Position numbers and translations under genes: made by a program. From a virus (Duplodnaviria > Heunggongvirae > Uroviricota > Caudoviricetes): a stretch of 64,000 bases of DNA. The notes beneath the pieces are model-generated. The model made no database searches. It saw nothing but the letters and a program-made list of their open reading frames with translations, and was not told the DNA's origin. The stretch is from IMG/VR virus record IMGVR_UViG_3300028805_000045. One strand, written 5' to 3'. Numbering within the stretch: the first letter of the stretch is position 1; each line of letters opens with the position of its first letter. Positions 38,534-50,684 of this stretch are shown piece by piece.

Positions 38534-38638
38534 GATAGTTATGGAAGGGATTCGAACCCTTGTCTCTTACTTTTTACGGTAAGTGTCTTAGTCCCCTAGA
38601 CAACCTCGGCTAGTATTTGCTGTAAGAGCCGAATAACT
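38534..38638 (-). tRNA. Atypical tRNA-like element
   Basis: D, anticodon (loop CGTAAAA) and T arms are recognisable. It is flanked by the 9-bp inverted repeat GATAGTTAT/ATAACTATC and carries an extra 5' hairpin containing CTCTTACAGCAAA. There is no canonical acceptor stem. Confidence 0.25.
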
Positions 38639-38646
38639 ATCTTAAT

Positions 38647-38721
38647 TGGAGCCGCCGATAGGATTTGAACCTACAACATCTCGCTTACAAGGCGAGCCCA
38701 CTACCATTGTGATACGACGGC
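38647..38721 (-). tRNA. tRNA-Thr (TGT)
   Basis: Acceptor GCCGTCG/CGGCGGC, loop CTTGTAA, CCA encoded. Confidence 0.8.
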
Positions 38722-38797
38722 ATATTTCTAGACTCTTCCATATTAACCATATATGTAATAAAATGTCGGTAAGTATATTGCTGTAAGAGTCATAATT

Positions 38798-39235
38798 TTA
38801 TTTATAAAGTTGAAATTTTTTTGAAATTTTCCAAGCAACTTCATCTGGAAGCGGCTTAAATCCAATACATGTCAATGTTCTTCCAATTCCATTTTCATCA
38901 ATTTTTTCAGGAGTAAGCTCAGTTAAACAAGCATCCCAAATTAAAAAATAATCTTTATTTTCTTTTAATCCAAGTTCTTTTGCTATATTTGTAGCTTTCA
39001 TTAGTTGATTATAATTTTTAGCTTCACATACTGTTTTTGTAAAAACTCCTTTAAACCATTGATCCATTACTTCTTTATCTAATAAAACTGAAACATTATA
39101 TCCAGTTTCATTTTCAATTGCGGGAGTATTACGAATTTGATTTGATATAAAAGCAAAAGAAGCATGTGCTACTTGCGCGGCTAATTTTCCTGCACTCATA
39201 TTTAAATCTTTACGCGCAATAATTATTTGTCTCAT
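38798..39235 (-). CDS. Peptidyl-tRNA hydrolase, PTH2 family
   Basis: IIARKDLNMSAGKLAAQVAHAS matches the PTH2 consensus (VRTDLGMGKGKIAAQCSHAA). Confidence 0.65.
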   Translation of the reverse strand: MRQIIIARKDLNMSAGKLAAQVAHASFAFISNQIRNTPAIENETGYNVSVLLDKEVMDQWFKGVFTKTVCEAKNYNQLMKATNIAKELGLKENKDYFLIWDACLTELTPEKIDENGIGRTLTCIGFKPLPDEVAWKISKKFQLYK

Positions 39236-39424
39236 AAAATCACCATAAGTTCTAGGCTCGTAATTAATTATTAATTTAAAACGCTATCTCTAAGTATTTC
39301 ATAAAATAATTTTTATTACATTTGCTGTAATGAGCCTATGTTTATTTATAAGCAAGATCGTTATATATAATTTATTATCGCCCATCAAATTATCTCCAAT
39401 ATTAATTGCTGTAACGATCTTGAA

Positions 39425-39499
39425 TGGCAGGCGAGGTAGGAATCGAACCTACGTTAGCGGAGTCAAAGTCCGTTGCCTTAGCCGCTTGGCTACTCGCCT
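39425..39499 (-). tRNA. tRNA-Gln (TTG)
   Basis: Acceptor AGGCGAG/CTCGCCT, loop CTTTGAC, T-loop TTCGATT, CCA encoded. Confidence 0.75.
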
Positions 39500-39507
39500 A
39501 TAAGTAA

Positions 39508-39581
39508 TGGGCAAGAAGGGAGTTGAACCCTCAAAACCCAGATTCTTAGTCTGGTACCTATGCCAATTCGGTTACTCGCCC
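39508..39581 (-). tRNA. tRNA with anticodon loop CTAAGAA (anticodon AAG, a Leu codon family; short variable arm, A73)
   Basis: Acceptor GGGCGAG/CTTGCCC and a perfect anticodon stem CCAGA/TCTGG. Position 34 is an unusual A. Confidence 0.55.
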
Positions 39582-39788
39582 TCACTCTCGAACATATCAA
39601 GTAGTTCTTCTTCAGAAAGAACTTGTTCAAGCTCAGAAAGCTGAATATCTACTACGTTTTTAGTCCCATAATATTCAGTAGCTCGCTGAGCGGCTTCTCC
39701 ATAAGAAGTTGCGGCGACAATGCCAGAATCAGTACGAGGTTCATTGTCAATTTCATCCCAGTAATTAATAACGTAGTAATACATTTTC
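39572..39788 (-). CDS. Small acidic hypothetical protein (start reassigned to MKMYYYV so that it does not overlap a tRNA)
   Basis: The N-terminus of ORF-track entry 39572..39931 is a translated tRNA. Confidence 0.4.
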
Positions 39789-39868
39789 ATTCTCCTTTCA
39801 ATACAAGTCACATTTAAAATAGCTGCATTTTTTAGTGCGGTTTTTGTTAAGATTGCTGTTAATGACTT

Positions 39869-39959
39869 TGGCGGGGAGGGTGGGATTCGAACCCACGCAC
39901 CAGTTACCTGGCCTAATTGCTTAGTAGGCAACCCCCTTCAACCACTTGGGTACCTCCCC
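39869..39959 (-). tRNA. Type II (Ser-like, G73) tRNA with anticodon loop CTACTAA (formal anticodon ACT; the loop contains CTA)
   Basis: Acceptor GGGGAGG/CCTCCCC is a perfect stem. Long variable arm. CCA encoded. The acceptor closely resembles that of the CTA tRNA at 43958. Confidence 0.55.
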
Positions 39960-40471
39960 ATATAAGCCGATGTATTAATATTGCGGCAACATTAATACTT
40001 TCTGTATATGCTATATAAAGCCGCGCAATGTATAGGCTATCGGCTTAGCCCATTATAATACGGTTTCGAGGTCGTACACCGAAAACCCCAACATGTTGTT
40101 AGCGTTTTTTATTTTACTCTCACGCTGTTGCGATCGCTATATACCGCACTACGTCTTAGAGGACTTTATTTTGCCGCATTCGGGGCATGAAGTGTTCCGT
40201 TCTAAGAATCTTCTCTCCGCGAATTATGTTCTTTTTATATACCGCAGGAACATAGCTAATTAGCGGTTTCTCCCCTATCTTTCAGCGGCCGACCTACTCA
40301 ATAGGCAAGAAATATATATAAGAAGCGGTGACGTATACTTTGGCCGCAATTTGTTTCTAACAAGAGATTACGTCTCACACTGCCAGTCATCAAGTTCTTT
40401 AGCTTGCTTGACACGGCTCCAAGAGGAAGAAAACACAGTACGACTCATTTTACGCATAATCATCACTTTCC

Positions 40472-40522
40472 TTTCTCTCTTTCTTACATATATATTATAC
40501 TATAAATTTTATTTATAGTCAA
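40472..40522 (-). promoter_or_regulatory. Promoter cassette copy driving an ORF-poor segment and the downstream tRNAs
   Basis: Full cassette including the CTTTCTTACATATATATTATAC leader. Confidence 0.5.
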
Positions 40523-40839
40523 ATATTAATTCCATGAGATTTCATTGCGGATTTTAAAGAATTATTTGTAAGAGTTGTATTAACACTACTACAAGTGGTA
40601 GTAGCTGTATCTCCAGATTTGCATGTTACTTGATTCCACCAAGGATTAGGATCTCCAGTAGATTGCCATGTAATACTAGGAGTAGCAGTAATTTGTGTGC
40701 CGATGCAGTTAATACAAGAGTTCTGCCAAGGAGCCATAATTGCTCCACAAGAAGGGCATTTCCAGCCATATTGAATCGGTAATGAAACTGGTTTATCAGA
40801 ATTAGATTTAACAGTATATGTTGTTGAAGTACTATCCAT
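40519..40839 (-). CDS. Cys-rich small protein
   Basis: 106-aa ORF. Confidence 0.4.
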   Translation of the reverse strand: MDSTSTTYTVKSNSDKPVSLPIQYGWKCPSCGAIMAPWQNSCINCIGTQITATPSITWQSTGDPNPWWNQVTCKSGDTATTTCSSVNTTLTNNSLKSAMKSHGINI

Positions 40840-40841
40840 TT

Positions 40842-41357
40842 TTAATTCTCCTTTAAAAATTTATCTAAAATAGGAACATTGACATTAGAATTAATTACTG
40901 AACCCACTTTTCGTGGTTGATATAAAGCAATAGTTTGTAGAAGATTACGATCAATTCCATAAATTAAGTCATTAATTTCATCTTCAACTTCTGCACGAGG
41001 TCTACAAAAATCTTTATATTCTTCTTTTCGTTTTTCGATTTCAATTAAAGCATTATTTCGAGTTATATCTTCTATTTCAATTGTATATAAGACTTCATCG
41101 TTACGTTGTTTACATTTACAACAAATATAAGTTTCATAGATTTTTATAACTAAACGACCAAGCTGTTTTTCTTTTTCTCGTTTTTTATTAGCTTCATTAT
41201 AATAAACATTCCAAGAAAATATAAAATATGGTGAAGAATCCCACCAAAAATGCTCACATTCTTTTGGAACATAAAGTGTTGGAACTTCTTCTACTTTATT
41301 ATTGTTTTTCTTTTTTGTAAACCAGCTCATTTTATTCTCCTTTAAATGGTAGGGCAT
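40842..41357 (-). CDS. Hypothetical protein
   Basis: 171-aa ORF. Confidence 0.45.
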   Translation of the reverse strand: MPYHLKENKMSWFTKKKNNNKVEEVPTLYVPKECEHFWWDSSPYFIFSWNVYYNEANKKREKEKQLGRLVIKIYETYICCKCKQRNDEVLYTIEIEDITRNNALIEIEKRKEEYKDFCRPRAEVEDEINDLIYGIDRNLLQTIALYQPRKVGSVINSNVNVPILDKFLKEN

Positions 41358-41423
41358 GGTGGAATCGAACCATCCTGACCAGTTTATAAGACTGGCGTAA
41401 TCATACCAATATACGAATGCCCC
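41347..41423 (-). tRNA. tRNA-Ile (TAT)
   Basis: Acceptor GGGGCAT/ATGCCCT, loop CTTATAA, CCA encoded. Confidence 0.7.
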
Positions 41424-41434
41424 ATATAGAGGAA

Positions 41435-41620
41435 TTAATCCTCTTCGCCAAAATAGTCATCTATAGTTTTAGGACTAAAACTTAAAGCAATTGCGAATCG
41501 CCGAAAAAAACTCACTAATTCACTCATAGTTAAATCTTCTGAACAGTGAAAGGTTAAATCTACATCAGGATAATTTTCTGGATAAAATGAAAAACTTAAA
41601 GTTGCATTTTTTTCTTCCAT
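41435..41620 (-). CDS. Hypothetical protein
   Basis: 61-aa ORF. Confidence 0.35.
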   Translation of the reverse strand: MEEKNATLSFSFYPENYPDVDLTFHCSEDLTMSELVSFFRRFAIALSFSPKTIDDYFGEED

Positions 41621-41627
41621 TTTATTT

Positions 41628-41675
41628 CTCCTTTCTTACATATATATTATAACATAATTTTAAATTAAAGTCAAT
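41628..41675 (-). promoter_or_regulatory. Promoter cassette copy
   Basis: Motif match. Confidence 0.5.
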
Positions 41676-41709
41676 TATTTATACGTTCTTCAATTAATAT
41701 AACTTCATT

Positions 41710-41880
41710 CAGACATATGTTCTCCAAAATAATCATACACTATTTGTAAACAATTATCAAACATATCGTTTGCTTTTTCATAGGCACATTGAGTAGTATA
41801 ATCTTTCCCAAAAAAATCGTCATCAGAAATACGTAAATTTTCTAAACGGTCTAATAAATCTGTTACAAACATCATAGCAA
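41710..41880 (-). CDS. Small hypothetical protein
   Basis: Manual 56-aa ORF MMFVTDLLDRLENLRISDDD... Confidence 0.3.
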
Positions 41881-41889
41881 TAATTCTCC

Positions 41890-42210
41890 TTAATAAGAAA
41901 AATGTTTAAAGCATTCTGGTTCTTCTTTTTCAAAAAATCCACCGCGTTCTTCATTCCATTCAAAATAGGTACGACGATCTTTTGTTGCACTATCATAACA
42001 GCCGGGATATAAAGTTAAAATAAATCCGGCTTTAAACATATACTCATGAATATCACACCAATTTTCATGCATAGCGCGAACTGCGGTTTCATATTCATAG
42101 TAAAAGCCTACGTCATCTTGTGTGCCACAATCAGGCCAGCCGCATTCATTTGGTGCAGGAATTTTTGAGAATAAAAGAATACGATAAATGGGCTTTTGAT
42201 CTTTATACAT
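41890..42210 (-). CDS. Hypothetical protein
   Basis: 106-aa ORF. Confidence 0.45.
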   Translation of the reverse strand: MYKDQKPIYRILLFSKIPAPNECGWPDCGTQDDVGFYYEYETAVRAMHENWCDIHEYMFKAGFILTLYPGCYDSATKDRRTYFEWNEERGGFFEKEEPECFKHFSY

Positions 42211-42227
42211 ATTATCACCTTTCTTGA

Positions 42228-42298
42228 AGCTTCATAGAGGAATTGAACCTCTATATAGTGTTTACGAAACACTTATGTTGCCATTACATTAATGAAGC
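42228..42298 (-). tRNA. tRNA-Thr (CGT)
   Basis: Acceptor GCTTCAT/ATGAAGC, loop TTCGTAA, T-loop TTCAATT. CCA is not encoded. Confidence 0.7.
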
Positions 42299-42299
42299 G

Positions 42300-42627
42300 T
42301 TTGATGGCTGATTTTTCTGCTGTCCGCCAGCCATCGGCACATACGTCCGATAAGAACACAGGTTTTTCCGTTGCCTGCCAACCGCCGGCACATTCGTCCG
42401 GTAAGTCTGTCGGATTTTAGGTGTCAGCCCACCGGTAATAATTGTTACCTCAAAATAAGCCAGATATACCAATAACATTTGTATATCTTTAACGACCGGG
42501 CTCACGGCGACCACCTCCTTAAGATTCCCTAGTGGTTCGTCTGGGATACGAGAATTTTCCTTTCCGATTTGGTTCGCGACCCGCTTCGGCGGCAACACCT
42601 TTATACATTCCCATTCTCAAAGGTTAC
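42300..42627 (-). ncRNA. GC-enriched ORF-free segment between two tRNAs, candidate structured RNA
   Basis: Contains a tandem pair of roughly 48-nt repeats (GCCAGCCATCGGCACATACGTCCGATAAG / GCCAACCGCCGGCACATTCGTCCGGTAAG) and a CCGC-UUCG-GCGG tetraloop hairpin. The overlapping ORF 42284..42598 is judged spurious. Confidence 0.3.
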
Positions 42628-42703
42628 TGGTCGGAGTGGTGGGACTTGAACCCACGACTTCTTGATCCCAAATCAAGCACGCTACCAACTGCGCTACACC
42701 CCG
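42628..42703 (-). tRNA. tRNA-Pro (TGG)
   Basis: Acceptor CGGGGTG/CACTCCG, loop TTTGGGA, CCA encoded. Fused directly to the promoter leader. Confidence 0.8.
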
Positions 42704-42736
42704 TTCTTTACATATCTATTATACTATAATTTTAAC
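42702..42736 (-). promoter_or_regulatory. Promoter cassette copy fused directly to tRNA-Pro
   Basis: The leader ...ATATGTAAAGAA runs straight into the tRNA 5' end CGGGGTG. Confidence 0.5.
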
Positions 42737-42743
42737 TAAAAGT

Positions 42744-42814
42744 CAAATATTAAAGCGTCCAGTTGGAGTTGAACCAACTAACAAGGATTTTGCAGACCCT
42801 CTCCCGACCGACGA
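42744..42814 (-). tRNA. tRNA-Cys (GCA)
   Basis: Acceptor GCGTCCA/TGGACGC, loop CTGCAAA, T-loop TTCAACT. Confidence 0.75.
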
Positions 42815-42942
42815 GAATTGGACGCATATGCACAAGATAATAAGCAGTTGACAATCTGCATCTCTTATATTAGTGATAGCTGCCTGTTCTATCCTTTATT
42901 ATCTTATGCTCCGCTCTTTCTACACATGGCAGATGAGTTAAA

Positions 42943-43014
42943 CAGGAAGGTAGGGACTCGAACCCCAATCAACGGTTTTGGAGACCGTCATGCTACCAAT
43001 TGCACCACCGACCT
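42943..43014 (-). tRNA. tRNA-Trp (CCA), imperfect acceptor
   Basis: Perfect anticodon stem ACGGT/ACCGT with loop CTCCAAA. T-loop TTCGAGT. The acceptor has 2 mismatches. Confidence 0.55.
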
Positions 43015-43251
43015 ATGATATGATAGGTTGATCCTGGTGTTTCCTCTTTTAAATACGACAAACTTGAATAAAATTTCCAGTTTCTATTCTTAAAAATTAC
43101 CGTATCCCTATCTAACGACATTTCAGCCGCTGTTTACAGTTCTACTGCCTTTCGGAATAAACAGCAATCCCCTGGTGGCATGGGTTGGTAACGATCCAAC
43201 CTATGTGGATTTTCAGTCCACTGCTAATCCGTCTCAGCTACCGTGCCATAA

Positions 43252-43339
43252 TGGGTGGAAAGACAGGACTTGAACCTGCACTTCTCTAATGAGAAATCGG
43301 GGCCACAACCCGACGCGTATACCATTTCGCCACTTACCA
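43252..43339 (-). tRNA. Type II tRNA with anticodon loop TTGTGGC (anticodon GTG, His-type; C73)
   Basis: Acceptor TGGTAAG/CTTTCCA (1 mismatch). Long variable arm TTCTCATTAGAGAA. CCA encoded. Confidence 0.45.
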
Positions 43340-43350
43340 CATATATCTAA

Positions 43351-43422
43351 TGCGAGTGGTGGGAATTGAACCCACTGTACCTTGATTAAAAGTCAAGTGC
43401 CTTACCGGTTGGCTACACTCGC
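43351..43422 (-). tRNA. tRNA-Lys (TTT)
   Basis: Acceptor GCGAGTG/CACTCGC, loop CTTTTAA. Confidence 0.8.
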
Positions 43423-43425
43423 ATA

Positions 43426-43501
43426 TGGAGCTGAGGACGGGACTTGAACCCGTGGTCTTGCGCTTACCAAGCGCACGCTTTACCAACTAAGCTACGACAG
43501 C
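43426..43501 (-). tRNA. tRNA-Thr (GGT)
   Basis: Loop TTGGTAA and T-loop TTCAAGT. The acceptor has 2 internal mismatches. CCA encoded. Confidence 0.65.
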
Positions 43502-43503
43502 AT

Positions 43504-43620
43504 TGGAGCAAGTACACGGATTTGAATCGCGGATACTGTGATTAATGGTGGAAGACCCAAGATTCAAACTTGGCCCTACTTGCGCGAGTATGTGCCTTCA
43601 CTACACCAATCTCCCAAGTC
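43504..43620 (-). tRNA. Degenerate tRNA-like sequence
   Basis: Acceptor GCAAGTA/TACTTGC and a T-loop TTCAAAT are present but no anticodon arm can be folded. Confidence 0.2.
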
Positions 43621-43785
43621 ACATGCTTTTCCAACTAAACTAATGGCGCATATAAATCACATCCATTCTCCCGATTCTCCAAATGGAACCTATCCACCGT
43701 AATTAACTTTTCATTAATTACCCTTATAGCGTCAACGAAGGATATAGACTATTTTATTGATCGTACTTTTATCTCATGTGATTAA

Positions 43786-43859
43786 TGGAGCAAGTAGCGG
43801 GAATTGAACCCGCGACGTCTGCATGGCAAGCAGAAGTTTTACCGCTAAACTATACCTGC
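43786..43859 (-). tRNA. tRNA-Gly (GCC)
   Basis: Acceptor GCAGGTA/TACTTGC, loop TTGCCAT, CCA encoded. Confidence 0.8.
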
Positions 43860-43865
43860 ATAAAC

Positions 43866-43955
43866 TAGACCATTTAATTTATAGGAATCGAACCTATTCA
43901 AAAATTTTTTACAGAAATTTTTTTTAACCAAAATTAATTGCCGAAATGGTCTATA
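43866..43955 (-). tRNA. AT-rich tRNA-like element (loop CTGTAAA, i.e. GTA)
   Basis: Outer stem TAGACCATTT/AAATGGTCTA and T-arm ATAGG-TTCGATT-CCTAT, with an AATTT/AAATT stem bearing a CTGTAAA loop. The spacing is non-canonical. Confidence 0.2.
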
Positions 43956-43957
43956 AT

Positions 43958-44047
43958 TGGCGGGGGAGCTCGGATTTGAACCGAGAATGACGCCCTCAGA
44001 AGGCCCAGGTTTTAGAGACCTGCGTGTTGCCGTTACACCACTCCCCT
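43958..44047 (-). tRNA. Amber suppressor tRNA, anticodon CTA; type II scaffold (long variable arm), Ser-like
   Basis: Anticodon stem CAGGT/ACCTG with loop CTCTAAA (CTA = revcomp of plus 44013-44015). T-arm CTCGG-TTCAAAT-CCGAG. 3' end is ...CTCCCCCGCCA. The loop flanks GGTCT.CTAAAACC resemble this phage's tRNA-Ser(TGA) (GGTCTTGAAAACC) and the E. coli serU/supD Ser tRNA. Confidence 0.75.
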
Positions 44048-44050
44048 TTA

Positions 44051-44184
44051 TGGTGGGCGAGGACAGGATTTGAACCTGCGAAGCTTTCGCCTTGGATTTA
44101 CAGTCCATTAAGTAGCTGTTAGAACCTCAATTACTAGATTCATTTTATCGGTTCCAATGTCTTTGACCACTTGACTACTCGCCC
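44051..44184 (-). tRNA. tRNA-Tyr (GTA)-like gene interrupted by a roughly 48-nt insertion at the 5' side of the anticodon loop
   Basis: Perfect acceptor GGGCGAG/CTCGCCC, A73, CCA. Loop CTGTAAA. The insert ACCGATAAAATGAATCTAGTAATTGAGGTTCTAACAGCTACTTAA is flanked by the direct repeat TGGA. Confidence 0.45.
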
Positions 44185-44263
44185 ATATGAGAGTTTTGAA
44201 CACCAAACTCACAACGGTTGCCTTAGGGTAGTAACTTTCCTGCGACTCAGCTCGCAACACTAT

Positions 44264-44349: not shown

Positions 44350-44422
44350 ATAAATAACACGACGACTTCTAACTAAATAAATCCCTAATTTATTGTTAAA
44401 ATTATTGCTGTAATCGTCGTAA

Positions 44423-44787: not shown

Positions 44788-44789
44788 TA

Positions 44790-45104: not shown

Positions 45105-45109
45105 ATTAT

Positions 45110-46270
45110 ATTCTCCTTTAATTTATAAAATGCCAAGCGTTTCAGGCTCTTTTTAACGGTTTCTGTGTTTCCGTATTCACGCATAGTCCATTAGTACCAT
45201 GGGCTTTTGGACTCACCCTATGTAGCTGACAGTATTTCAACTTCCCCACTCATAAGGGATGGTCGATATTTTTATACCGCATCATCCACTCTGCGGTTTA
45301 AATTTTTGCGGGTGTAGATTTTCACTACACATGATAAATAAGTGAATTGGCCGAGTTCTTCTTATTTATCATAGTTACTTTTTGAAGCATTTGCTCTTAT
45401 CTTCTGGAGAAGCACCCTAACACTATGTGTCTACTGATACAATGCACTTTGCATTAACATTGCCACTGTATCCGCTACAGATTATTGAACAATCAAATGA
45501 TTGTTTTTTAATTCTGCTTGCGTTTATTCCACCACCGCAAATATTATTTATATAGCACAAAACCTAAGACACCAAAGATTAGAAAAACGCATCCGCATCA
45601 TCCACTCTGCGGTTTGACGAGAAATTCTTCCCATCTGCTAAAATGCCCCTTACTCTTATTTCTTTAGTATAAAAGACACTTTGTTTAACAATTACTGCGA
45701 CCTTCGCCGTACCTCATAATTCTTCTTGAATATTATGCTACTATTGAAAACCGGGCTGTGGCATAAGTAGCGACCTTATACCATCCGATTCCCGCGCCTA
45801 GCGCCGAGAATAGAGAGGATTGTTTACCTCTAAGTTTCACCCAAACCATTCAGCAGAAATTCATATCTGTATTTGTATTTCTATTTACATACAAATTTCT
45901 GTCTTGGGCTACTCCAACCGCAAACCTTACTTATATGCCATTTCTGGCTTTCATCGACATAGCGACTTGTGGTTTTTCCAGAGTTTGTATTGGCTACCAC
46001 CCCAATACCTTATCTGGATTTGGCCTGGCTCTTAACCTGGCTTCCTATTGTGTCGCCGTAAGGAATCGTGCATTTTCAAGCGAATTACTTGGCGCATACT
46101 CTTAACATTTGGAGTTTCTCCGCTATCGCTAACTATTACTAGTTTTGCGGCCGCACTTGCCTAGTATCCCGGGCAGTAGTGTATGGCTGTTATTCAAGTA
46201 TCCCAAGCTGCGTGGTTAGCGCATCTTCACTTGGTTCATAATTGCTAAACAAAATGTCTTTTACATTTCG
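45110..46270 (-). ncRNA. About 1.15 kb of GC-enriched, ORF-free sequence downstream of a promoter cassette: candidate long structured RNA(s) or an acquired element
   Basis: No ORF of at least 60 aa on the minus strand. A duplicated 23-mer CCGCATCATCCACTCTGCGGTTT occurs twice. Two hairpins covary: GTGTAG-ATTTTCA-CTACAC versus GTGTGG-ATTTTCA-CCACAC. Confidence 0.3.
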
Positions 46271-46274
46271 TTTT

Positions 46275-46319
46275 CCTTTCTTACATATTTATTATATCAT
46301 AGATTTTGAAGAAAGTCAA
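46275..46319 (-). promoter_or_regulatory. Promoter cassette copy driving the 1.15-kb ORF-free region
   Basis: Motif match. Confidence 0.5.
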
Positions 46320-46507
46320 ATATTTAGGTGTGGATTTTCACCACACATACGAGCTTTATTCTCCATGATTCCAAGTTTTATGTCCTCTCCGACTGGAACC
46401 GCTTTTTCGGCGCGTAGTCTCAACCCTCGCATGCTCGCCAACCGTCAACTGCTGCATCCTCATGGATTTGTATTTACGTCTACATATTCCGCCACTAAAT
46501 ATTTGAA

Positions 46508-46585
46508 TGGTGTCCAGTAAAGGATTTGAACCTTCAAAAACATGGGCCTAAACCATGCGCGTCTGCCAAATTGCGCCAACTGGAC
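46508..46585 (-). tRNA. tRNA-Leu (TAG), short variable arm, A73
   Basis: Acceptor GTCCAGT/ACTGGAC, stem CATGG/CCATG, loop TTTAGGC. Confidence 0.65.
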
Positions 46586-46664
46586 ATAATTCGCTTCTAT
46601 TCAGTTTTTCTTTTTTTTCCACAATTTGCTAAAAGAGTCGTATGAAGCGATAACAGTAGACTTT

Positions 46665-46740
46665 GGTATCCTCGGTGGGAGTCGGACCCACAGAACTTCG
46701 GGTTTGAGCCGAATACATATGCCAATTCTGTTACGAGGAC
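46665..46740 (-). tRNA. tRNA-Leu (CAA), short variable arm, A73
   Basis: Acceptor GTCCTCG/CGAGGAT, loop CTCAAAC, T-loop TCCGACT. Confidence 0.65.
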
Positions 46741-46746
46741 ATAAAA

Positions 46747-46824
46747 TGGTAGCGAGAATGGGATTCGAACCCACACTACAGAGATTTTAAGTCTCTTGAC
46801 TCTGCCAAATTGGTCTACCTCGCC
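46747..46824 (-). tRNA. tRNA-Leu (TAA), short variable arm, A73
   Basis: Stem AGAGA/TCTCT, loop CTTAAAA. The acceptor has 2 G-U pairs. Confidence 0.65.
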
Positions 46825-47000
46825 ATATTGCTACTATTAACCGTCGTAGCCACGTGCTCCCCAGGTACGCATTATTAAGAGGCGCGGGCAAGTCTATTAA
46901 AACTAGACACGCTTATCTTCCCGGAGCCGACCCGGTGCCTTTTTACTGCAATTCCAAAAATAGCTTGTTCTTTAAGAAAATTTGCTGACGTGTCTCGGCT

Positions 47001-47074
47001 TGGAGCGATATGCGGGACTCGAACCCGCGTCACCGGCTTGGAAGGCCAGGGCACTACCGCTATACCAATACCGC
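47001..47074 (-). tRNA. tRNA-Gly (TCC)
   Basis: Acceptor GCGGTAT/ATATCGC, loop CTTCCAA, T-loop TTCGAGT. Confidence 0.75.
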
Positions 47075-47105
47075 ATTTGCCTATTTAACCCAATAGGCCA
47101 AGAAA

Positions 47106-47182
47106 GTGGTCGCAACACCTGGACTTGAACCAGGGACTTTCATCTTATCAGGATGACACGCTGACCAACTGCGTCATGTTGC
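47106..47182 (-). tRNA. tRNA-Ile (GAT)
   Basis: Acceptor CGCAACA/TGTTGCG, loop CTGATAA. Confidence 0.8.
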
Positions 47183-47183
47183 G

Positions 47184-47411
47184 TTAAGATTTTTTAGCAA
47201 TAAATTTCATTTCAATTTTAGTATTAGCAGGAATAGAATATGAAAGAAAATAATTGTCGGGAAGAGAACACATAATGCTAGAACCTTCAATTGTAAAACA
47301 ATTAATACAATCTTCATGGCCTCGCTGTTTCAAAGTATCTATTAACCAATTATAAATAGACTTAACAAATTCAGTTTTCGTGGCTTGAATAGATAATTCT
47401 TTCTTTTCCAT
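47184..47411 (-). CDS. Hypothetical protein
   Basis: 75-aa ORF downstream of a promoter cassette. Confidence 0.4.
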   Translation of the reverse strand: MEKKELSIQATKTEFVKSIYNWLIDTLKQRGHEDCINCFTIEGSSIMCSLPDNYFLSYSIPANTKIEMKFIAKKS

Positions 47412-47429
47412 AAAATCATTTCCTTTCTC

Positions 47430-47469
47430 TTGATATATTTATTATATCAAAAAATCTTAAAAAAGTCAA
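47430..47469 (-). promoter_or_regulatory. Promoter cassette copy
   Basis: Motif match. Confidence 0.5.
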
Positions 47470-47475
47470 ATATAC

Positions 47476-47530
47476 AAGACCCGCTATAAACGCGCCCGGC
47501 CATCGGGCATCTTTCCCCATAATGGGGAAA
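47476..47530 (-). terminator. Tandem hairpins (terminator-like) that follow a truncated T-arm-like sequence
   Basis: Minus-strand hairpins CTTTCCCC-ATTAT-GGGGAAAG and GCCCG-ATGGC-CGGGC. The upstream GTTAG-TTCGATT-CTAAC looks like an orphan T-arm. Confidence 0.35.
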
Positions 47531-47594
47531 GGTTAGAATCGAACTAACTATCACGTGCTCTCTATGCAAAAGAAGAATTGCTGACAGGTCTTAA

Positions 47595-47668
47595 TGGCGG
47601 CCGATGAGAGAATTGAACTCCCCTGGGGTGGTTAACAGCCACCTGCCAAACCACTTGGCGAATCGGCC
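47595..47668 (-). tRNA. tRNA-Asn (GTT)
   Basis: Acceptor GGCCGAT/ATCGGCC, stem GGTGG/CCACC, loop CTGTTAA. Confidence 0.8.
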
Positions 47669-47689
47669 ATACGAAAGGGATTTCTCCCT

Positions 47690-47730
47690 TTCAACATATT
47701 TATTATAGCATAATTTTAAATAAGAGTCAA
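47690..47730 (-). promoter_or_regulatory. Promoter cassette copy upstream of tRNA-Asn
   Basis: Motif match. Confidence 0.5.
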
Positions 47731-47733
47731 ATA

Positions 47734-48288
47734 TTAGGGCCACTCGCCTAATGGCTTACCAAGATTTGCACGCTCAACATTAGTATTATAGAAAACACCT
47801 TCTGTTGCTGGGCCAGTTAGAACTTCTTCTGCAATATCTTGATATAGAGTACTAATAATACCATGACAATCGTTTAGATTATCTGCGGCAAACTGCACTA
47901 CGCAATTATTAAATACGACGTAAGTTGTACCAATCCACTGATAACCTTCTTCAGCAGGACAAACAGAGTATGCATAAGCAGGATTACCTTTGAATGCAGT
48001 ATCAAATAGTTCAACCTTACTGGTAAAGGCGCGATTAGTTGGAGTTCCATCAATCATAATTTTTAGTTTAACATTGCCAAAACCTACTTCTTCTGGCAAA
48101 ATTTGCTGTAAAGCCGCGACTTTATCGCCGTTATTACAAGCAAGAACTACTGTTGGATGTTCGCCACTAAAATCAACATTGAAAGCAATTAGAGGATCTC
48201 CGTCAAATAGAGCTTCTAATTTTCTTACTGTAATCGTCCAAGGTGGTAGAATTTTTAATCTTACATTATTCATTTCAGTATACCTCAT
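47734..48288 (-). CDS. Hypothetical protein
   Basis: 184-aa ORF. Confidence 0.45.
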   Translation of the reverse strand: MRYTEMNNVRLKILPPWTITVRKLEALFDGDPLIAFNVDFSGEHPTVVLACNNGDKVAALQQILPEEVGFGNVKLKIMIDGTPTNRAFTSKVELFDTAFKGNPAYAYSVCPAEEGYQWIGTTYVVFNNCVVQFAADNLNDCHGIISTLYQDIAEEVLTGPATEGVFYNTNVERANLGKPLGEWP

Positions 48289-48299
48289 AAATTAGAATA

Positions 48300-50440
48300 G
48301 CAGTAGGTTGCTAGCCACACATCAGAGTCAAATAAAAACTAGACAGACTTATATACATTCTATCCATTGAACTATTAGCCGCGTAAGCGACTAAGTGAGA
48401 TTCGAACTCACATCCCTTGTTATACAGACAAATTAAGAAAATATTGCTGACCTGTCTAAATGGTGCGGCAAATAGCACTCTAAGCTATACATCATTATAG
48501 GGACGTCTCCGTAAACTATAAGGTGTCTCTCACGTAAGCATTACTTTGGTCGCTTACTGGTTGCCACATATAAAGCCGAGCACACCCTCGGCGTGGGTTA
48601 TTAGGGCTGTTATCCTTATAAGGGATACATTTTTTCAACTCCATTACAGGCACCCTACTATTAGAGATTATAGTGTGTAACCGCACACTTACTTACTTCG
48701 CCTGTCTTTTTATTATAGTCTGCCGCTAAGCCGCATGCTACATATCATATTTGATTATGAAGTATTGCTTAGAAAGTTCATTCATAAGCACTTCTCCCAA
48801 ATACGCCAGTAGTAGTTTAGTAAAAATCCGTGTTTTCCGCAGACTTGCATCGTAAAGGAGGCGATGCGAATGGCGGCCCCAGCGGGTTATGATCCCGCGA
48901 TCTCGGCGGTGACAGCGCCGTATTCTAACCAGCTGAACTATGGGGTCATATAGATAGTCTTTAAAGCTAAAGGCTTACGTCATAATCTCACATTGGCATT
49001 ACATATTTATACTGCTGAAGCCACATTTGATCTCAAAGCACGATGGTACCCACATCCGGGAACGATCCGGAATTTTCACCTTGAAAGGGTGACGAACTAA
49101 CCAATTATTCGATGCGGGCATAATTCCAGTGTTGGCGCACCGGAACGACGAGATGCAGTTGACTAGTTATTATTGCGCCAACAATAATAACAACGAATTT
49201 TTAATTTCTATGTTTGTCTTTCATCAACTTTATCTCTCACGTTTTTACACAGATACGTGTCAACTGTTTGCTCTTCATTGGAATCGAACCAATCCTACTC
49301 GGTGGTATATCCGGGCGTGCCTTCCACTACACTATCAGGGCATATAGGCGTTTGATAACCCAGGTTGCGCCCAAACTCTGGGCATGTGTTGTACTTTCAC
49401 ATGATGAAAATGCGGCGACCACATAAACCGCGTTCAAGAGATTCAGGTCATGACTCCCTTCTCTTGGAAGAGCACTAGGATTCCCTTCCCATTTTCATTT
49501 TACTATACTGCGTCAGAATGCTGTTCCTACATTCATTGTTAAGGGTTAGCTTTCACCCTAACCGTTTACAGCGGTCGCATTTTAGCCTACACAATGTGAC
49601 GGGTGCGGAGGGCCCTTCCACCGCTTTTCTGATTTGTTAACAATCAGTAAGGACTTCACCCATTACTTTCCTTCCATCCCGTTTTTCGGCCGTTGTACTT
49701 CTTACGTGGTACATCACGCTTGCCTGATATTCTTCCAATTTAACGCGCAAGTCCGCTAAATTTCCTATTGGTCTCAGTGGAATAGGACGCTGCTTCGATT
49801 TTTTGTTTAGGCCAGAAATCAAGACAACTGGCACTTTTGACTATCGAGGTGGCCCATATATTAGAAACCTGCACTAATATGGCGATTCTTCTAATATACG
49901 TATCTCAATCTGGTCTTCGTCCATCCCCACTTCCCGTTTCCGAAGTGTAGCGCACCATCAACTACGAGTGTGACGGAAACTCACATTTCTTCTTTTACGT
50001 CCTTACTGTTTGGACTTGGCTGTTCTTCAAACTCCATTTAACCCATTCTTCCTAGCGTGTGGTCTAAAGCTTCTTAACCTTAGTTTTTCAAAACTTACAC
50101 GCTAATTACGGCATTTGGGCACCTAATAGGCGCAATGATTTGCGCATTGCTTTAAGCTCCCTTAGCACCGATGCTCTGCCTGACTACCAGAGCTACAGCA
50201 GTCTGGCCCTGCTTGCCGACATCGTTATTTTATATACCGCGAACGATGTGCGGTTGCGCTCTCCAGTGGCCGCCTTCGAGCGGGGCTAGATTCTAAGTGC
50301 ATCAGAGTTTTTTGACACCGTGGCCTTCCTCCGCCACCGCCGGGAGTCGAACCCGGGCAGCGTCGTTACCTTTTCGCCCTAACATCACTACGTCGATGTT
50401 TCTCACCTTGAACGAATACCTTCTAACGGTCTGGTATCAA
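48300..50440 (-). ncRNA. About 2.1 kb GC-enriched, essentially ORF-free island holding one tRNA-Asp, orphan tRNA-like arms and repeated hairpins
   Basis: Only scattered short ORFs. The 14-mer GGTCATGACTCCC(T/G) recurs at 49441 and 50791. An orphan T-arm lies at about 48409-48425 and a GCCC..-type 5' half at about 49262-49345. Confidence 0.3.
48871..48947 (-). tRNA. tRNA-Asp (GTC)
   Basis: Stem CGGCG/CGCCG, loop CTGTCAC, T-arm GCGGG-ATCATAA-CCCGC. The acceptor has 1 mismatch. CCA encoded. Confidence 0.6.
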
Positions 50441-50444
50441 CCGT

Positions 50445-50520
50445 TGGTCGCGGGCCTGGGAGTCGAACCCAGTCCTTGAGGCTTATGAGGCCCATGACTT
50501 AACCGCTTGTCCTGTCCGCG
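50445..50520 (-). tRNA. tRNA-Met (CAT), or Ile2
   Basis: Loop CTCATAA, T-arm CTGGG-TTCGACT-CCCAG. The acceptor has 1 mismatch. Fused to the promoter leader. Confidence 0.65.
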
Positions 50521-50524
50521 ATAC

Positions 50525-50573
50525 TCTCTCTTTCTTACATAATTATTATATCATAATTTTTGTTTTAAGTCAA
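50525..50573 (-). promoter_or_regulatory. Promoter cassette copy fused to tRNA-Met
   Basis: Minus-strand TTGACTTAAAACAAAAATTATGATATAATAATTATGTAAGAAAG. Confidence 0.55.
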
Positions 50574-50584
50574 ATAACTAGACT

Positions 50585-50625
50585 CGAAATTTCATGCTCT
50601 ACCTCTTGAGCTACTCACGCTATTG
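50585..50625 (-). pseudogene. 5' tRNA fragment (acceptor plus D-arm) abutting a promoter cassette
   Basis: GCGTGAG-TA-GCTC-AAGAGGTA-GAGC... is followed directly by the TTGACT -35 element. Confidence 0.35.
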
Positions 50626-50684
50626 CATAAGATGGGAGTTGAACCCACGACACTGAAAGTGTTGTTTGCTGTAAGAGTCTATAA

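What the first reader, a model, noticed from the sequence alone, without database searches (positions are those of the whole stretch)
38613..50680. Recurring CAGCAA(T/A) element 10-25 nt downstream of tRNA 3' ends, with a longer CTCTTACAGCAAA 13-mer in three places
Reading the minus strand after the 3' CCA or discriminator gives the following downstream sequences: TTCAAGATCGTTACAGCAATTAA after tRNA-Gln; AAAGTCATTAACAGCAATC after the 39869 tRNA; TTACGACGATTACAGCAATAAT after tRNA-Arg; AGCCGAGACACGTCAGCAAATT after tRNA-Gly(TCC); AAGACCTGTCAGCAATTC after tRNA-Asn; TTATAGACTCTTACAGCAAACA after tRNA-Val; and ...GGCTCTTACAGCAAATACT after tRNA-Thr(TGT). The same core appears after the PTH2 gene (38778) and at 48445 next to an orphan T-arm. 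Often the motif lies in the loop of a local hairpin, for example TCGGCT-CTTACAGCAAATACT-AGCCGA at 38613-38630 and CAAGATCGTTA...TAACGATCTTG at 39351-39420. This looks like a dedicated processing or recognition signal (3'-end maturation, a nuclease or ligase site, or the footprint of a small mobile element) rather than chance.
Basis: seen in the sequence. Interest (0 to 1): 0.65.

Follow-up and report, generated by a model that had tools for sequence, protein, structure and literature searches.

The report
Y-RNA-like small RNAs beside tRNAs
The repeated CAGCAA motif marks ten copies of an apparently undescribed small structured RNA that, in phages, bacteria and some archaeal genome bins, sits next to a distant relative of the Ro60 RNA-quality-control protein, and that looks strikingly like the "Class I" RNAs thought to exist only in social amoebae.

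Summary
CAGCAA(A/T) occurs 11 times on the minus strand of 38400-52800, against 2.0 expected. Ten of the 11 copies sit directly after the 5' arm of a 7-11 bp stem whose 3' arm lies 15-110 nt downstream.

The motif is not a tRNA 3'-end signal. It is the handle of a family of 60-120 nt structured RNAs, with consensus 5'-wAGRY(stem)-nnA-CAGCAAW-variable module-(stem)RYCUwG-3'. The variable module often mimics tRNA parts.

The same element lies on the gene strand next to homologues of the window's 514-aa DUF2828/DUF7788 protein (33879-35423). This holds in related phage contigs, three cultured phages, bacterial genomes without tRNA arrays and Asgard archaeal bins. The predicted fold of that protein matches Ro60, and in bacteria the gene is often adjacent to RtcB.

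A covariance model trained only on bacterial and archaeal copies recovers nine of the ten window copies as nine of its ten best hits.

The best reading is that these RNAs are the Y-RNA equivalents of a divergent Ro60-like protein, co-transcribed with the tRNAs. Protein binding is inferred, not shown.

Rfam 15 has no family for the element. Its architecture and its 10-nt core CUUACAGCAA match Dictyostelium Class I RNAs. Whether that reflects homology remains untested.

The parts
50579..50681 (-). Element 10. 5' arm TAGACTC 50675-50681; linker TTA; CAGCAAA 50665-50671; permuted tRNA-like module (variable loop, T arm, closed acceptor hairpin, D arm); 3' arm GAGTCTA 50579-50585. Starts 2 nt after tRNA-Val. 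The next promoter's -35 box begins 6 nt after it.
   Evidence: Bacterial-trained CM R1: 26.1 bits, E=6.7e-4, at 50577-50682. Rfam YrlA: 35.3 bits, below threshold, full-length alignment of the T/acceptor/D parts. Promoter at 50573.
48339..48459 (-). Element 9.
   Evidence: R1: 11.7 bits at 48338-48459. Rfam YrlA: 22.3 bits, below threshold.
47475..47593 (-). Element 8. 5' arm TAAGACCTGT 47584-47593; CAGCAAT 47577-47583; interior with a T-arm-like hairpin, a 9-bp closed hairpin and a D-arm-like hairpin; 3' arm GCGGGTCTTG 47475-47484. Starts 1 nt after tRNA-Asn. A promoter follows at 47469.
   Evidence: R1: 9.7 bits at 47474-47593.
46905..46995 (-). Element 7. 5' arm AGACACGT 46988-46995; CAGCAAA 46981-46987; interior hairpins not tRNA-like; 3' arm GCGTGTCT 46905-46912, then AGTTTT. 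Starts 5 nt after tRNA-Gly(TCC).
   Evidence: R1: 13.3 bits at 46902-46997.
44358..44421 (-). Element 6. 5' arm TACGACGATT 44412-44421; CAGCAAT 44404-44410; A/U-rich hairpin; 3' arm AGTCGTCGTG 44358-44367. Lies between tRNA-Arg and tRNA-Tyr. An orthologue is present in L001 at 2288.
   Evidence: R1: 24.7 bits, E=1.4e-3.
39805..39868 (-). Element 5. 5' arm AAGTCAT 39862-39868; linker TAA; CAGCAAT 39852-39858; 3' arm GTGACTT 39805-39811. Starts directly after the tRNA at 39869-39959.
   Evidence: R1: 29.0 bits, E=1.4e-4, the best hit in the window.
39353..39422 (-). Element 4. 5' arm CAAGATCGTTA 39412-39422; CAGCAAT 39405-39411; 3' arm TAACGATCTTG 39353-39363. Starts 2 nt after tRNA-Gln.
   Evidence: R1: 27.3 bits, E=3.4e-4.
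39253..39338 (-). Element 3. 5' arm TAGGCTC 39332-39338; linker ATTA; CAGCAAA 39321-39327; 3' arm GAGCCTA 39253-39259. In tandem, 14 nt after element 4 and upstream of the PTH2 gene.
   Evidence: R1: 14.9 bits. Rfam Dicty_Class_I_RNA: 22.5 bits, below threshold, at 39288-39334.
38731..38791 (-). Element 2. 5' arm GACTCTT 38785-38791; CAGCAAT 38777-38783; 3' arm AAGAGTC 38731-38737, then TAG. Lies between the PTH2 stop codon and tRNA-Thr.
   Evidence: R1: 19.4 bits, E=0.024.
38532..38643 (-). Element 1 (composite). Outer stem AAGATAGTTAT 38633-38643 pairs with ATAACTATCTT 38532-38542, followed by GTTTT. Inside it are a hairpin TCGGCT/AGCCGA (38606-38632) with CTTACAGCAAATACT in its loop (motif 38616-38622) and a normal-order tRNA-like body (D, anticodon and T arms) without its own acceptor stem.
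   Evidence: Rfam tRNA: 34.2 bits at 38537-38610, reported as a full-length (1-71) match; that its acceptor positions fail to pair is my own reading of the sequence. Same layout in L005 7961-8080 and L017 13620-13725. Not recovered by R1.
33879..35423 (-). Gene for the presumed protein partner: 514 aa, Pfam DUF2828 + DUF7788, vWA domain with a DxSxS motif (DTSGS, residues 312-316). Predicted fold is Ro60-like (HEAT-repeat/TROVE-like ring plus vWA domain).
   Evidence: Pfam. AlphaFold2 model, pLDDT 79, pTM 0.71. The ten best Foldseek PDB hits are all Ro60/TROVE structures, aligned over the full length (E about 1e-7, prob 1.0, TM about 0.5). Homologues in cultured phages are annotated 'Ro-like RNA binding protein'.
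27090..39235 (-). Surrounding RNA-repair gene set: DraRnl-type RNA ligase 27090-28487; RlaP nucleotidyltransferase 32353-33246; metallophosphatase 36963-37589; AAA_33 kinase 37586-38065; PTH2 38798-39235.
48102..48108 (-). CAGCAAA inside ORF 47734-48288. Not a member of the family; a chance occurrence.
   Evidence: ORF listed. Stem score 5.75, at control level. No R1 hit.

Best explanation
Each CAGCAA site is the conserved handle of a separate small non-coding RNA of about 60-120 nt.

**Architecture (shown).**
- The two ends of the RNA pair into a 7-10 bp stem. The outer pairs are conserved (5'-wAG...CUw-3', then G) and the inner pairs covary freely.
- The 5' arm is followed at once by a stretch that is mostly single-stranded, (C)nnA-CAGCAA-W.
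- The rest is a variable module. In about a quarter to a third of family members it imitates tRNA parts: a T arm, a D arm, an anticodon stem-loop, or a whole tRNA body in normal or circularly permuted order.

**Expression in this phage (inferred).** The ten copies are transcribed together with the tRNAs from the TTGACT-N17-TATAAT promoters. They are probably released by the enzymes that trim the neighbouring tRNAs.

**Partner and function (inferred).** The stem plus CAGCAA handle is bound by the Ro60-like ring protein encoded at 33879-35423. This follows from gene linkage and from analogy with Ro60 and its Y RNAs. The tRNA-like module then gates the protein or tethers it to tRNA-handling or RNA-repair enzymes. 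Candidates are the adjacent RNA ligase, kinase/phosphatase and RlaP, and RtcB in bacteria. The role would be RNA quality control or repair, or countering host defence.

In short, these are the Y-RNA equivalents of a divergent Ro60 paralogue.
For: **1. The motif and stem are real.**
- 11 observed against 2.0 expected.
- Stems are better than at random positions.
- Every minimum-free-energy fold keeps the closing stem.

**2. The family is conserved.**
- In 96 related phage loci plus the window itself, CAGCAAW with a stem score of at least 7 occurs 152 times on the sense strand and 31 times on the antisense strand. At a score of at least 9 the counts are 44 and 1.
- A fixed-register consensus was derived from these copies.

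**3. The stem covaries.** On 94 modules (alignment A2), 7 solid pairs show 208 double-change cells against 65 in shuffles. The covariation score is 0.642, against 0.199 for shuffles and 0.17 or less for slid structures.

**4. The element is linked to the protein gene, not to tRNAs.**
- In 80 bacterial/archaeal loci found through the protein, elements occur 136 times on the sense strand and 20 on the antisense strand.
- 51 lie within 250 nt upstream of the gene.
- 50 of 70 loci have at least one within 1.5 kb upstream, including 35 of 44 loci with no tRNA.

**5. A model trained elsewhere finds the window copies.** CM R1, trained only on 31 bacterial/archaeal copies, recovers 9 of the 10 window elements as 9 of its 10 best hits (ranks 1-8 and 10; an unrelated plus-strand match at 25082 is rank 9). 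All nine are on the minus strand, within about 4 nt of my hand-drawn ends, and five have E < 0.03. It also finds copies beside the gene in Listeria phage LP-124, Mycobacterium phage Rumpelstiltskin and Salmonella phage Mushroom.

**6. The protein's predicted fold matches Ro60**.

**7. RtcB sits on the same strand next to the gene** in 32 of 80 bacterial loci. This parallels the rsr-yrlBA-rtcBA operon (PMC7790460, PMC4201824).

**8. The cargo is tRNA-like.**
- Below-threshold YrlA alignments.
- Acceptor-less tRNA hits inside the elements.
- A T-loop motif in 38 of 156 interiors, against 1.1 in shuffles.

**9. The elements are packed like tRNAs.** In phage arrays, 29 of 70 start within 10 nt of a tRNA 3' end and 34 of 62 end within 15 nt of the next tRNA.

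**10. Independent experimental hint.** The Felix O1-like phage Bas63 gp130 was reported as Ro60-like and as a counter to the Ppl defence. Its authors guessed at Y RNAs among the downstream 'tRNAs' but did not identify any (PMC11482910).
Against: - No expression, end-mapping or binding data exist. The protein-RNA contact is inferred from gene linkage and analogy only.
- The canonical Ro60-binding motif (GNCGAAN0-1G or GGUCCGA) is absent.
- The Rfam YrlA and Dicty_Class_I scores are below their gathering thresholds.
- The protein is a Ro60 relative by predicted fold only (12-16% identity). Pfam's TROVE family was not among its matches at E <= 0.001.
- In bacteria most copies lie in what could be the 5' UTR of the gene, so a cis-regulatory role there is not excluded.
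- My census required an exact CAGCAAW and a stem, so the counts are biased towards clean copies.
- In phages, linkage to the protein gene is confounded with linkage to tRNA arrays.
- The covariation test used modules pre-selected for pairing.
Confidence: 0.7

Rival explanations
1. The elements are cis-acting regulatory structures rather than stable RNAs. They would be protein-binding leaders or attenuators of the Ro-like gene in bacteria, and unusual terminators or insulators at the ends of tRNA transcription units in the phage.
For: - In bacteria, 51 elements lie within 250 nt upstream of the gene start.
- In the window, elements 8 and 10 end 6 nt before the next promoter.
- In phage copies, the bases after the 3' arm are T-rich.
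Against: - No GC-rich hairpin with a short loop and a U tract is present at any element.
- Bacterial copies are followed by G plus mixed A/T, not by a U run.
- In Rumpelstiltskin and Mushroom the copies lie downstream of the gene.
- The window copies lie 3-15 kb from the gene.
- Tandem arrays of up to 5-6 copies with different tRNA-like cargoes are not expected of a leader.
Confidence: 0.1
2. The motif is a processing signal for the 3' ends of the upstream tRNAs.
For: - Seven window copies start 0-5 nt after a tRNA 3' end.
- In related phages, 29 of 70 start within 10 nt of one.
Against: - Only 7 of 31 tRNAs in the window have it.
- It also follows a protein gene and other elements.
- It is present next to the Ro-like gene in 35 of 44 loci with no tRNA, and in a mycobacteriophage locus with no tRNA.
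- The conserved unit includes a distant 3' arm and a cargo module, which a cleavage signal would not need.
Confidence: 0.06
3. The RNAs are real, but their partner is not the Ro-like protein. They could be substrates, guides or decoys for RtcB or other ligases, for host anticodon nucleases, or for another factor. The gene linkage would then reflect only a shared pathway.
For: - RtcB adjacency.
- Anticodon-stem-loop and tRNA-body mimics in the cargo.
- The ends are held together by a stem, a geometry that suits a ligase.
Against: - The constant neighbour across phages, bacteria and archaeal bins is the DUF2828 gene. RtcB is present in only 32 of 80 bacterial loci and in 3 of the 96 phage loci, and it is absent from the window.
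- The conserved part of the RNA is the handle, not the cargo.
Confidence: 0.12
4. The elements are DNA-level repeats: inverted repeats of a miniature mobile element, or recombination sites resembling integron attC sites.
For: Imperfect inverted repeats flank variable DNA of 30-130 bp, in many copies per genome.
Against: - There is a strong strand bias relative to the gene (152 against 31, and 136 against 20).
- The interiors are unrelated in sequence, and I saw no flanking direct repeats when reading the copies (not searched formally).
- No integrase or transposase is linked to the elements.
- G-U pairs are tolerated in the stems.
- The cargo has tRNA-like folds.
Confidence: 0.03

Closest known systems
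Bacterial and phage Y RNAs (YrlA/YrlB, Yrn1; Rfam RF02553), the partners of Ro60/Rsr
   Same: - Small RNAs encoded beside a Ro60-type ring protein on the same strand, often together with RtcB.
- The 5' and 3' ends pair into a stem next to a conserved, largely unpaired motif.
- The remainder often mimics tRNA. Elements 8-10 have the permuted order (T arm, closed acceptor hairpin, D arm) that defines YrlA.
- Found in phages with tRNA arrays (PMC4201824, PMC12135203).
   Different: - The handle motif is CAGCAAW plus wAG/CUwG ends, not GNCGAAN0-1G or CGAA.
- The protein belongs to Pfam DUF2828/DUF7788, not TROVE, and is only 12-16% identical to solved Ro60 structures.
- YrlA model scores are 35 and 22 bits against a threshold of 69.
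- Copy number is high (10 here, 14 in L014).
- The cargo is very diverse: normal-order tRNA bodies, bare anticodon-loop mimics and plain hairpins.
Dictyostelium Class I RNAs (Rfam RF01414; Kjellin et al. 2021, PMC7919456)
   Same: - A short stem joins the 5' and 3' ends, with covariation.
- A conserved motif is adjacent to the 5' arm, with the identical 10-nt core CUUACAGCAA. Class I has CCUUACAGCAA; the window has CUCUUACAGCAA.
- The conserved start is AAG and the conserved end is CUGU (here wAG...CUwG-U).
- The remainder is variable, and there are many copies per genome.
- Published Class I sequences parse with the same rule I used here: 6-bp stem, CUUA linker, CAGCAAW, 3' arm, UG tail.
   Different: - Class I RNAs are eukaryotic, have their own DUSE promoters, and are 42-65 nt long.
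- They have no reported tRNA-like cargo.
- The only partner shown to bind them directly is the RRM protein Rnp1A.
- They were reported as unique to Dictyostelia.
- RF01414 scores here are 22.5 and 24.3 bits against a threshold of 41.5.
- In the bacterial and phage copies the C at -4 is usually paired and the stem is longer.
- I could not test whether Dictyostelium encodes a DUF2828 protein.
Other phage tRNA-array non-coding RNAs (ROOL, GOLLD, skipping-rope; T4 species 1 and 2 RNAs)
   Same: They are structured RNAs of unknown function embedded among phage tRNA genes. ROOL and skipping-rope are present in this same array.
   Different: Their sequences, structures and sizes are unrelated to this element, and none is defined by linkage to a Ro-like gene.

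Membership tests
Y RNA / YrlA (RF02553) | Encoded within a few kb of a Ro60 orthologue on the same strand | tested here: met
   Met for a Ro60-like (DUF2828) gene rather than a canonical one. In the window the elements lie 3-15 kb upstream on the same strand. In bacteria, 50 of 70 loci have a copy within 1.5 kb upstream. Three cultured phages have copies directly adjacent to the gene.
Y RNA / YrlA (RF02553) | Stem formed by the 5' and 3' ends | tested here: met
Y RNA / YrlA (RF02553) | Ro-binding motif GNCGAAN0-1G (bacteria) or GGUCCGA (animals) in the 5' strand | tested here: not met
   The conserved motif is (C)nnACAGCAAW. No CGAA-type motif appears in the consensus.
Y RNA / YrlA (RF02553) | tRNA-like domain, with a score at or above the Rfam gathering threshold (69 bits) | tested here: not met
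   35.3 bits (50568-50668) and 22.3 bits (48334-48434). The T/acceptor/D parts align, but the outer stems do not. No YrlA hit at the gathering threshold in seven related loci.
Y RNA / YrlA (RF02553) | Physical binding to the Ro60 protein | not testable with these tools
   Needs RIP, CLIP or EMSA.
Dictyostelium Class I RNA (RF01414) | Short terminal stem with compensatory changes | tested here: met
   Class I sequences were parsed with the same rule.
Dictyostelium Class I RNA (RF01414) | 11-nt motif CCUUACAGCAA adjacent to the 5' arm | tested here: met
   The 10-nt core CTTACAGCAA is present in elements 1, 2 and 10. Its counts are 28 on the sense strand and 2 on the antisense strand across all loci. 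CnnACAGCAAW gives 167 sense and 13 antisense. The first C of the 11-mer is not conserved here.
Dictyostelium Class I RNA (RF01414) | Conserved ends AAG...CUGU | tested here: inconclusive
   The family consensus is wAG...CUwG followed by T/U. This is similar but not identical, and the true RNA ends are unmapped.
Dictyostelium Class I RNA (RF01414) | Rfam gathering score of 41.5 bits; length 42-65 nt | tested here: not met
   22.5 bits at window 39288-39334 and 24.3 bits at L162 5321-5382. There was only one hit in 62 kb of bacterial loci. The window elements are 61-121 nt long.
Dictyostelium Class I RNA (RF01414) | Eukaryotic DUSE promoter; expression in Dictyostelia | not testable with these tools
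   Not applicable to phage or bacterial DNA. No amoebal genomes are available here.
Ro60 / TROVE protein family (for the neighbouring gene) | HEAT-repeat ring plus vWA domain with a MIDAS motif | tested here: met
   Met at the level of predicted fold and motif. Foldseek gives full-length matches to 9kop, 1yvr, 2i91, 1yvp and 9l5y. The DxSxS motif is invariant in the alignment.
Ro60 / TROVE protein family (for the neighbouring gene) | Sequence match to Pfam TROVE, or to solved Ro60 structures | tested here: not met
   Pfam gives only DUF2828 + DUF7788. phmmer against PDB sequences finds no Ro60.
Intrinsic terminator | GC-rich hairpin with a 3-8 nt loop, followed by a U tract | tested here: not met
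   None of the 15 terminator-like sites coincides with an element. The element loops are 15-110 nt.

The most novel reading that the evidence does not exclude
The phage, bacterial and archaeal CAGCAA-handle RNAs and the Dictyostelium Class I RNAs are one ancient family. Its conserved partner is the DUF2828 Ro60-like protein, which also occurs in eukaryotes and giant viruses. Class I RNAs, so far of unknown mechanism and reported as unique to social amoebae, would then be the eukaryotic branch of a cross-domain Ro-like/Y-like ribonucleoprotein tied to RNA repair (RtcB) and to phage counter-defence.
Probability: 0.35. Interest if true: 0.9.

Novelty: new variant of a known kind. Interest (0 to 1): 0.8.

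Why it matters
**1. It supplies a candidate RNA partner for a very widespread protein.**
- 711 cultured-phage records carry a homologue, including Felix O1-like, Listeria P100-like and cluster L mycobacteriophages. At least 8000 homologues were scored in the metagenomic protein collection.
- The protein is annotated only as DUF2828 or 'Ro-like'.
- In phage Bas63 it was shown to counter the Ppl defence, and its RNA partner was only guessed at (PMC11482910).

**2. It extends the Ro60/Y RNA/RtcB theme.** There would be a second, sequence-unrelated version of the module. It has a different handle and a large, diversified set of tRNA-mimicking cargoes, which gives a new way to ask what tRNA mimicry by Y RNAs is for.

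**3. It explains some unannotated gaps and 'pseudo-tRNA' calls in phage tRNA arrays.**

**4. It makes the Class I RNA question testable.** The family shares its architecture and its 10-nt core with Dictyostelium Class I RNAs. One can now ask whether a DUF2828 protein binds them.

Tried and rejected
**Interpretations considered and rejected**
- **boxA-like antitermination site.** GCTCTTACAGCAA resembles rrn/lambda boxA (from memory). Rejected because the bases before TTA covary with a distant 3' arm and are not conserved across the family.
- **Self-cleaving ribozymes next to tRNAs** (HDV-like 'theta', hammerhead, twister, pistol, hatchet). No Rfam hit at E <= 5, and the conserved cores I recall for these are absent.
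- **Genuine circularly permuted tRNA genes.** The order of the tRNA parts in elements 8-10 fits. However, the 'anticodon loop' would contain the whole handle, and most family members have no such module.
- **Intrinsic terminators.** Rejected.
- **Further, degenerate copies in the window.** A weight matrix plus stem scan and CM R1 with filters off found none that is convincing.

**Searches that gave nothing**
- No close nucleotide relative among cultured phages.
- A sequence search of the protein against PDB gave nothing.
- Literature searches for DUF2828, for the motif string, for TROVE plus Dictyostelium, and for Ro60 plus anti-defence found no description of this RNA.

**Things that could not be done**
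- The afdb50 fold library was unavailable.
- Avesson et al. 2011 and Aspegren et al. 2004 were not held, so the other Class I RNA-binding proteins could not be checked.
- The supplement of Chen et al. 2014 was not held.

Full report
**Setting**

The window carries a phage-type tRNA array on the minus strand.
- ARAGORN tRNAs between 38436 and 52734.
- The array is driven by 13 near-identical TTGACT-N17-TATAAT promoters.
- It also contains a ROOL RNA, a skipping-rope RNA and an abiF RNA.
- No cultured phage is close at the nucleotide level.

- CAGCAA(A/T) occurs 11 times on the minus strand of 38400-52800. 1000 dinucleotide shuffles gave 2.0 +/- 1.4, with a maximum of 8. The opposite strand has one copy.
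- The exact 13-mer occurs twice. The third copy ends in T.
- The copy at 48102 lies inside an ORF and behaves like chance.

In the other ten cases the motif directly follows the 5' arm of a stem whose 3' arm lies 15-110 nt downstream. Examples are TAGACTC/GAGTCTA, CAAGATCGTTA/TAACGATCTTG and TACGACGATT/AGTCGTCGTG.
- These stems are better than stems at 1500 random positions in the same region (mean score 7.66 against 5.28; none of 20000 bootstrap resamples reached the observed mean).
- They are kept in every minimum-free-energy fold.

**The interiors differ between copies**

- Elements at 47475-47593, 48339-48459 and 50579-50681 contain a T arm, a closed acceptor-like hairpin and a D arm, in that order. 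This is a circularly permuted tRNA mimic, the hallmark of YrlA-type bacterial Y RNAs. The Rfam YrlA model aligns to two of them below threshold (35.3 and 22.3 bits).
- The element at 38532-38643 holds a normal-order tRNA body without its own acceptor stem.
- The other six elements hold plain hairpins.

**Neighbouring genes**

Just downstream in the direction of transcription lies a 514-aa protein (33879-35423) with Pfam DUF2828 + DUF7788. It sits among an RNA ligase of the DraRnl type, an RlaP nucleotidyltransferase, a kinase, a phosphoesterase and PTH2.
- An AlphaFold2 model of the protein (pLDDT 79) matches Ro60/TROVE structures over its full length. These are the ten best Foldseek hits in the PDB (E about 1e-7, prob 1.0, TM about 0.5).
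- Sequence searches find no Ro60.
- The vWA DxSxS motif is invariant in the alignment.

**Conservation in related phages**

I fetched 96 phage loci through this protein and through PTH2. In those loci plus the window itself:
- CAGCAAW with a stem score of at least 7 occurs 152 times on the gene strand and 31 times on the other strand.
- At a score of at least 9 the counts are 44 and 1.
- Some loci have 10-14 copies.
- The consensus is wAGRCnnTTA-CAGCAAW ... nnGYCTwG, with the AG in a nearly fixed register.
- On 94 modules the seven core pairs are 100% or nearly 100% paired, with AU/GC/UA/CG interchange. There are 208 double-change cells against 65 in shuffles. The covariation score is 0.642, against 0.199 for shuffles and 0.17 or less for slid partners. 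This set was pre-selected for pairing, so the strand asymmetry above is the cleaner statistic.

**The decisive result: loci without tRNA arrays**

I scanned one genome per bacterial and archaeal species with the protein alignment. This returned 80 loci, mostly Clostridia, but also Synergistaceae, Treponema, Gammaproteobacteria, Thermotogota and Promethearchaeota bins. 54 of them have no tRNA.
- The same element is present, 136 times on the sense strand and 20 on the antisense strand.
- It is concentrated just upstream of the gene: 51 copies lie within 250 nt.
- 50 of 70 loci have at least one copy within 1.5 kb, including 35 of 44 tRNA-free loci.
- Copies often stand in tandem; L162 has five.
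- RtcB lies next to the gene on the same strand in 32 of 80 loci. This mirrors the Salmonella rsr-yrlBA-rtcBA operon (PMC4201824, PMC7790460).
- Bacterial copies also carry tRNA-like bodies or bare anticodon-stem-loop mimics.
- A T-loop motif occurs in 38 of 156 interiors, against 1.1 in shuffles.

**An independent model confirms family membership**

A covariance model built only from 31 bacterial and archaeal copies was run over the whole window with filters off.
- Nine of the ten elements are among its ten best hits (ranks 1-8 and 10; an unrelated plus-strand match at 25082 takes rank 9). All nine are on the minus strand, within about 4 nt of the ends I had drawn by hand. Five have E < 0.03.
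- The composite element at 38532-38643 is the one it misses.
- The model also finds the element in three cultured phages:
  - Listeria phage LP-124: three copies just upstream of its DUF2828 gene, with an RtcB-like gene nearby.
  - Mycobacterium phage Rumpelstiltskin: three copies just downstream of its 'Ro-like RNA binding protein', with no tRNAs in the locus.
  - Salmonella phage Mushroom: one copy in a gap of the Felix O1-type tRNA array at E < 1. The motif scan shows four copies there.
- 711 cultured-phage records encode a homologue of the protein.

**Interpretation**

The elements are separate small RNAs, the functional counterparts of Y RNAs for a divergent Ro60-like protein.

Shown:
- the motif and the covarying stem;
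- the tRNA-like cargo;
- linkage to the gene, with strand bias;
- the Ro60-like predicted fold;
- the RtcB neighbourhood.

Inferred:
- that the protein binds the stem plus CAGCAA handle;
- that the RNAs are released by tRNA processing. In phage arrays, 29 of 70 start within 10 nt of a tRNA 3' end and 34 of 62 end within 15 nt of the next tRNA;
- that the ribonucleoprotein acts in RNA repair, RNA quality control or counter-defence.

The last point fits a report that the Felix O1-like phage Bas63 gp130 is Ro60-like by structure and counters the Ppl defence. The authors suspected Y RNAs among the downstream 'tRNAs' but did not identify them (PMC11482910). Chen et al. 2014 surveyed only TROVE-annotated proteins and defined a different motif, GNCGAAN0-1G.

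**Comparison with known RNA families**

Rfam 15 has no family for the element. The only recurrent weak hit is RF01414, Dictyostelium Class I RNA (22.5 bits at 39288-39334; 24.3 bits, end to end, at L162 5321-5382).

Kjellin et al. 2021 describe Class I RNAs as having:
- a short covarying stem that joins the 5' and 3' ends;
- an 11-nt motif next to the 5' arm;
- conserved ends AAG...CUGU;
- an otherwise variable body.

They concluded that the class is unique to Dictyostelia. Their supplement gives the motif as CCTTACAGCAA. It also gives sequences such as DdR-21, GTTGACCTTACAGCAAACCC...CCGTCAACTG. These parse with my rule into a 6-bp stem, a CTTA linker, CAGCAAW, a 3' arm and a TG tail.

The window's CTCTTACAGCAA shares the 10-nt core. 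This is a resemblance in several independent features, not a demonstrated homology:
- the scores are below threshold;
- the sizes differ;
- I could not check whether Dictyostelium has a DUF2828 protein. No eukaryotic genomes are available here, the afdb50 library was unavailable, and key papers were not held.
- The one relevant fact I found is that mimivirus-like proteins carrying the DUF2828 domain have been reported.

**Rivals**

- A tRNA 3'-end processing signal is contradicted by the tRNA-free loci.
- A terminator or leader role is contradicted by the lack of terminator features, by copies downstream of the gene, and by tandem copies with diverse cargo.
- A DNA-level repeat is contradicted by the strand bias and the unrelated interiors.
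- A partner other than the Ro-like protein (RtcB, or an anticodon nuclease) cannot be excluded without experiments.

**Verdict**

The finding is real and more interesting than proposed. It is an unannotated, widespread, Y-RNA-like family with a new handle motif, tied to a Ro60-like protein, with a possible link to amoebal Class I RNAs.

Noticed in passing
window 45678-46258 (-), 42836-42903 (-), 52614-52650 (-): A ROOL RNA (323 bits), a skipping-rope RNA (53.8 bits) and an abiF RNA (44.2 bits) lie inside the tRNA array. ROOL is also present in relatives L001 and L005.
   Followed up: partly
window 43958-44047 (-): A tRNA with anticodon CTA and a long variable arm (ARAGORN calls it 'tRNA-Pyl'; Rfam tRNA 52 bits). 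It may be an amber suppressor, which would hint at TAG recoding in this phage.
   Followed up: no
window ~44090-44232 (-); L001 2433-2561: A tRNA-Tyr-like gene with an insertion of about 50 nt between the D arm and the anticodon arm. ARAGORN misses it in the window. The L001 orthologue scores 29.7 bits as a 129-nt tRNA.
   Followed up: partly
L024 8035-8182 and 10755-10944: tRNA genes in a related phage carry inserts of about 75-120 nt in the anticodon loop. This is too short for a typical group I intron.
   Followed up: no
window 49130-50440, 50985-51230, 52240-52610, 42300-42625, 44520-44770, 39960-40380, 45110-45670, 46330-46500, 48470-48870 (-): Long, GC-richer stretches between the tRNAs that read as non-coding and have no convincing Rfam match. 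The 13-mer GGGAGTCATGACC is repeated at 50836-50848 and 49446-49458. These may be further large structured RNAs.
   Followed up: no
window 38094-53233 (-): Thirteen near-identical promoters, TTGACT-N17-TATAAT, most with a TG extension. All are on the minus strand and split the array into short transcription units.
   Followed up: partly
window 25454-39235 (-): An RNA-repair and translation-rescue gene set lies next to the array: Band 7, DraRnl-type RNA ligase, RlaP, HNH endonuclease, Ro-like protein, metallophosphatase, AAA_33 kinase and PTH2.
   Followed up: partly
L131 5939, L137 7530, L173 5103, L152 5329, L127 5925 (bacterial loci): The shortest bacterial elements consist of the handle plus one hairpin with a 7-nt anticodon-like loop (CUGUUAA, CUGUCAA, CUUUUAA, CUGAAAA). 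They are bare anticodon-stem-loop mimics, with Asn, Asp, Lys and Phe anticodons.
   Followed up: partly
L177 (Salmonella phage Mushroom, KP143762.1) 11582-15642: The record's tRNA features are listed on the strand opposite to the one on which ARAGORN finds the tRNAs and on which the neighbouring genes lie. This may be an annotation strand error in the record.
   Followed up: no
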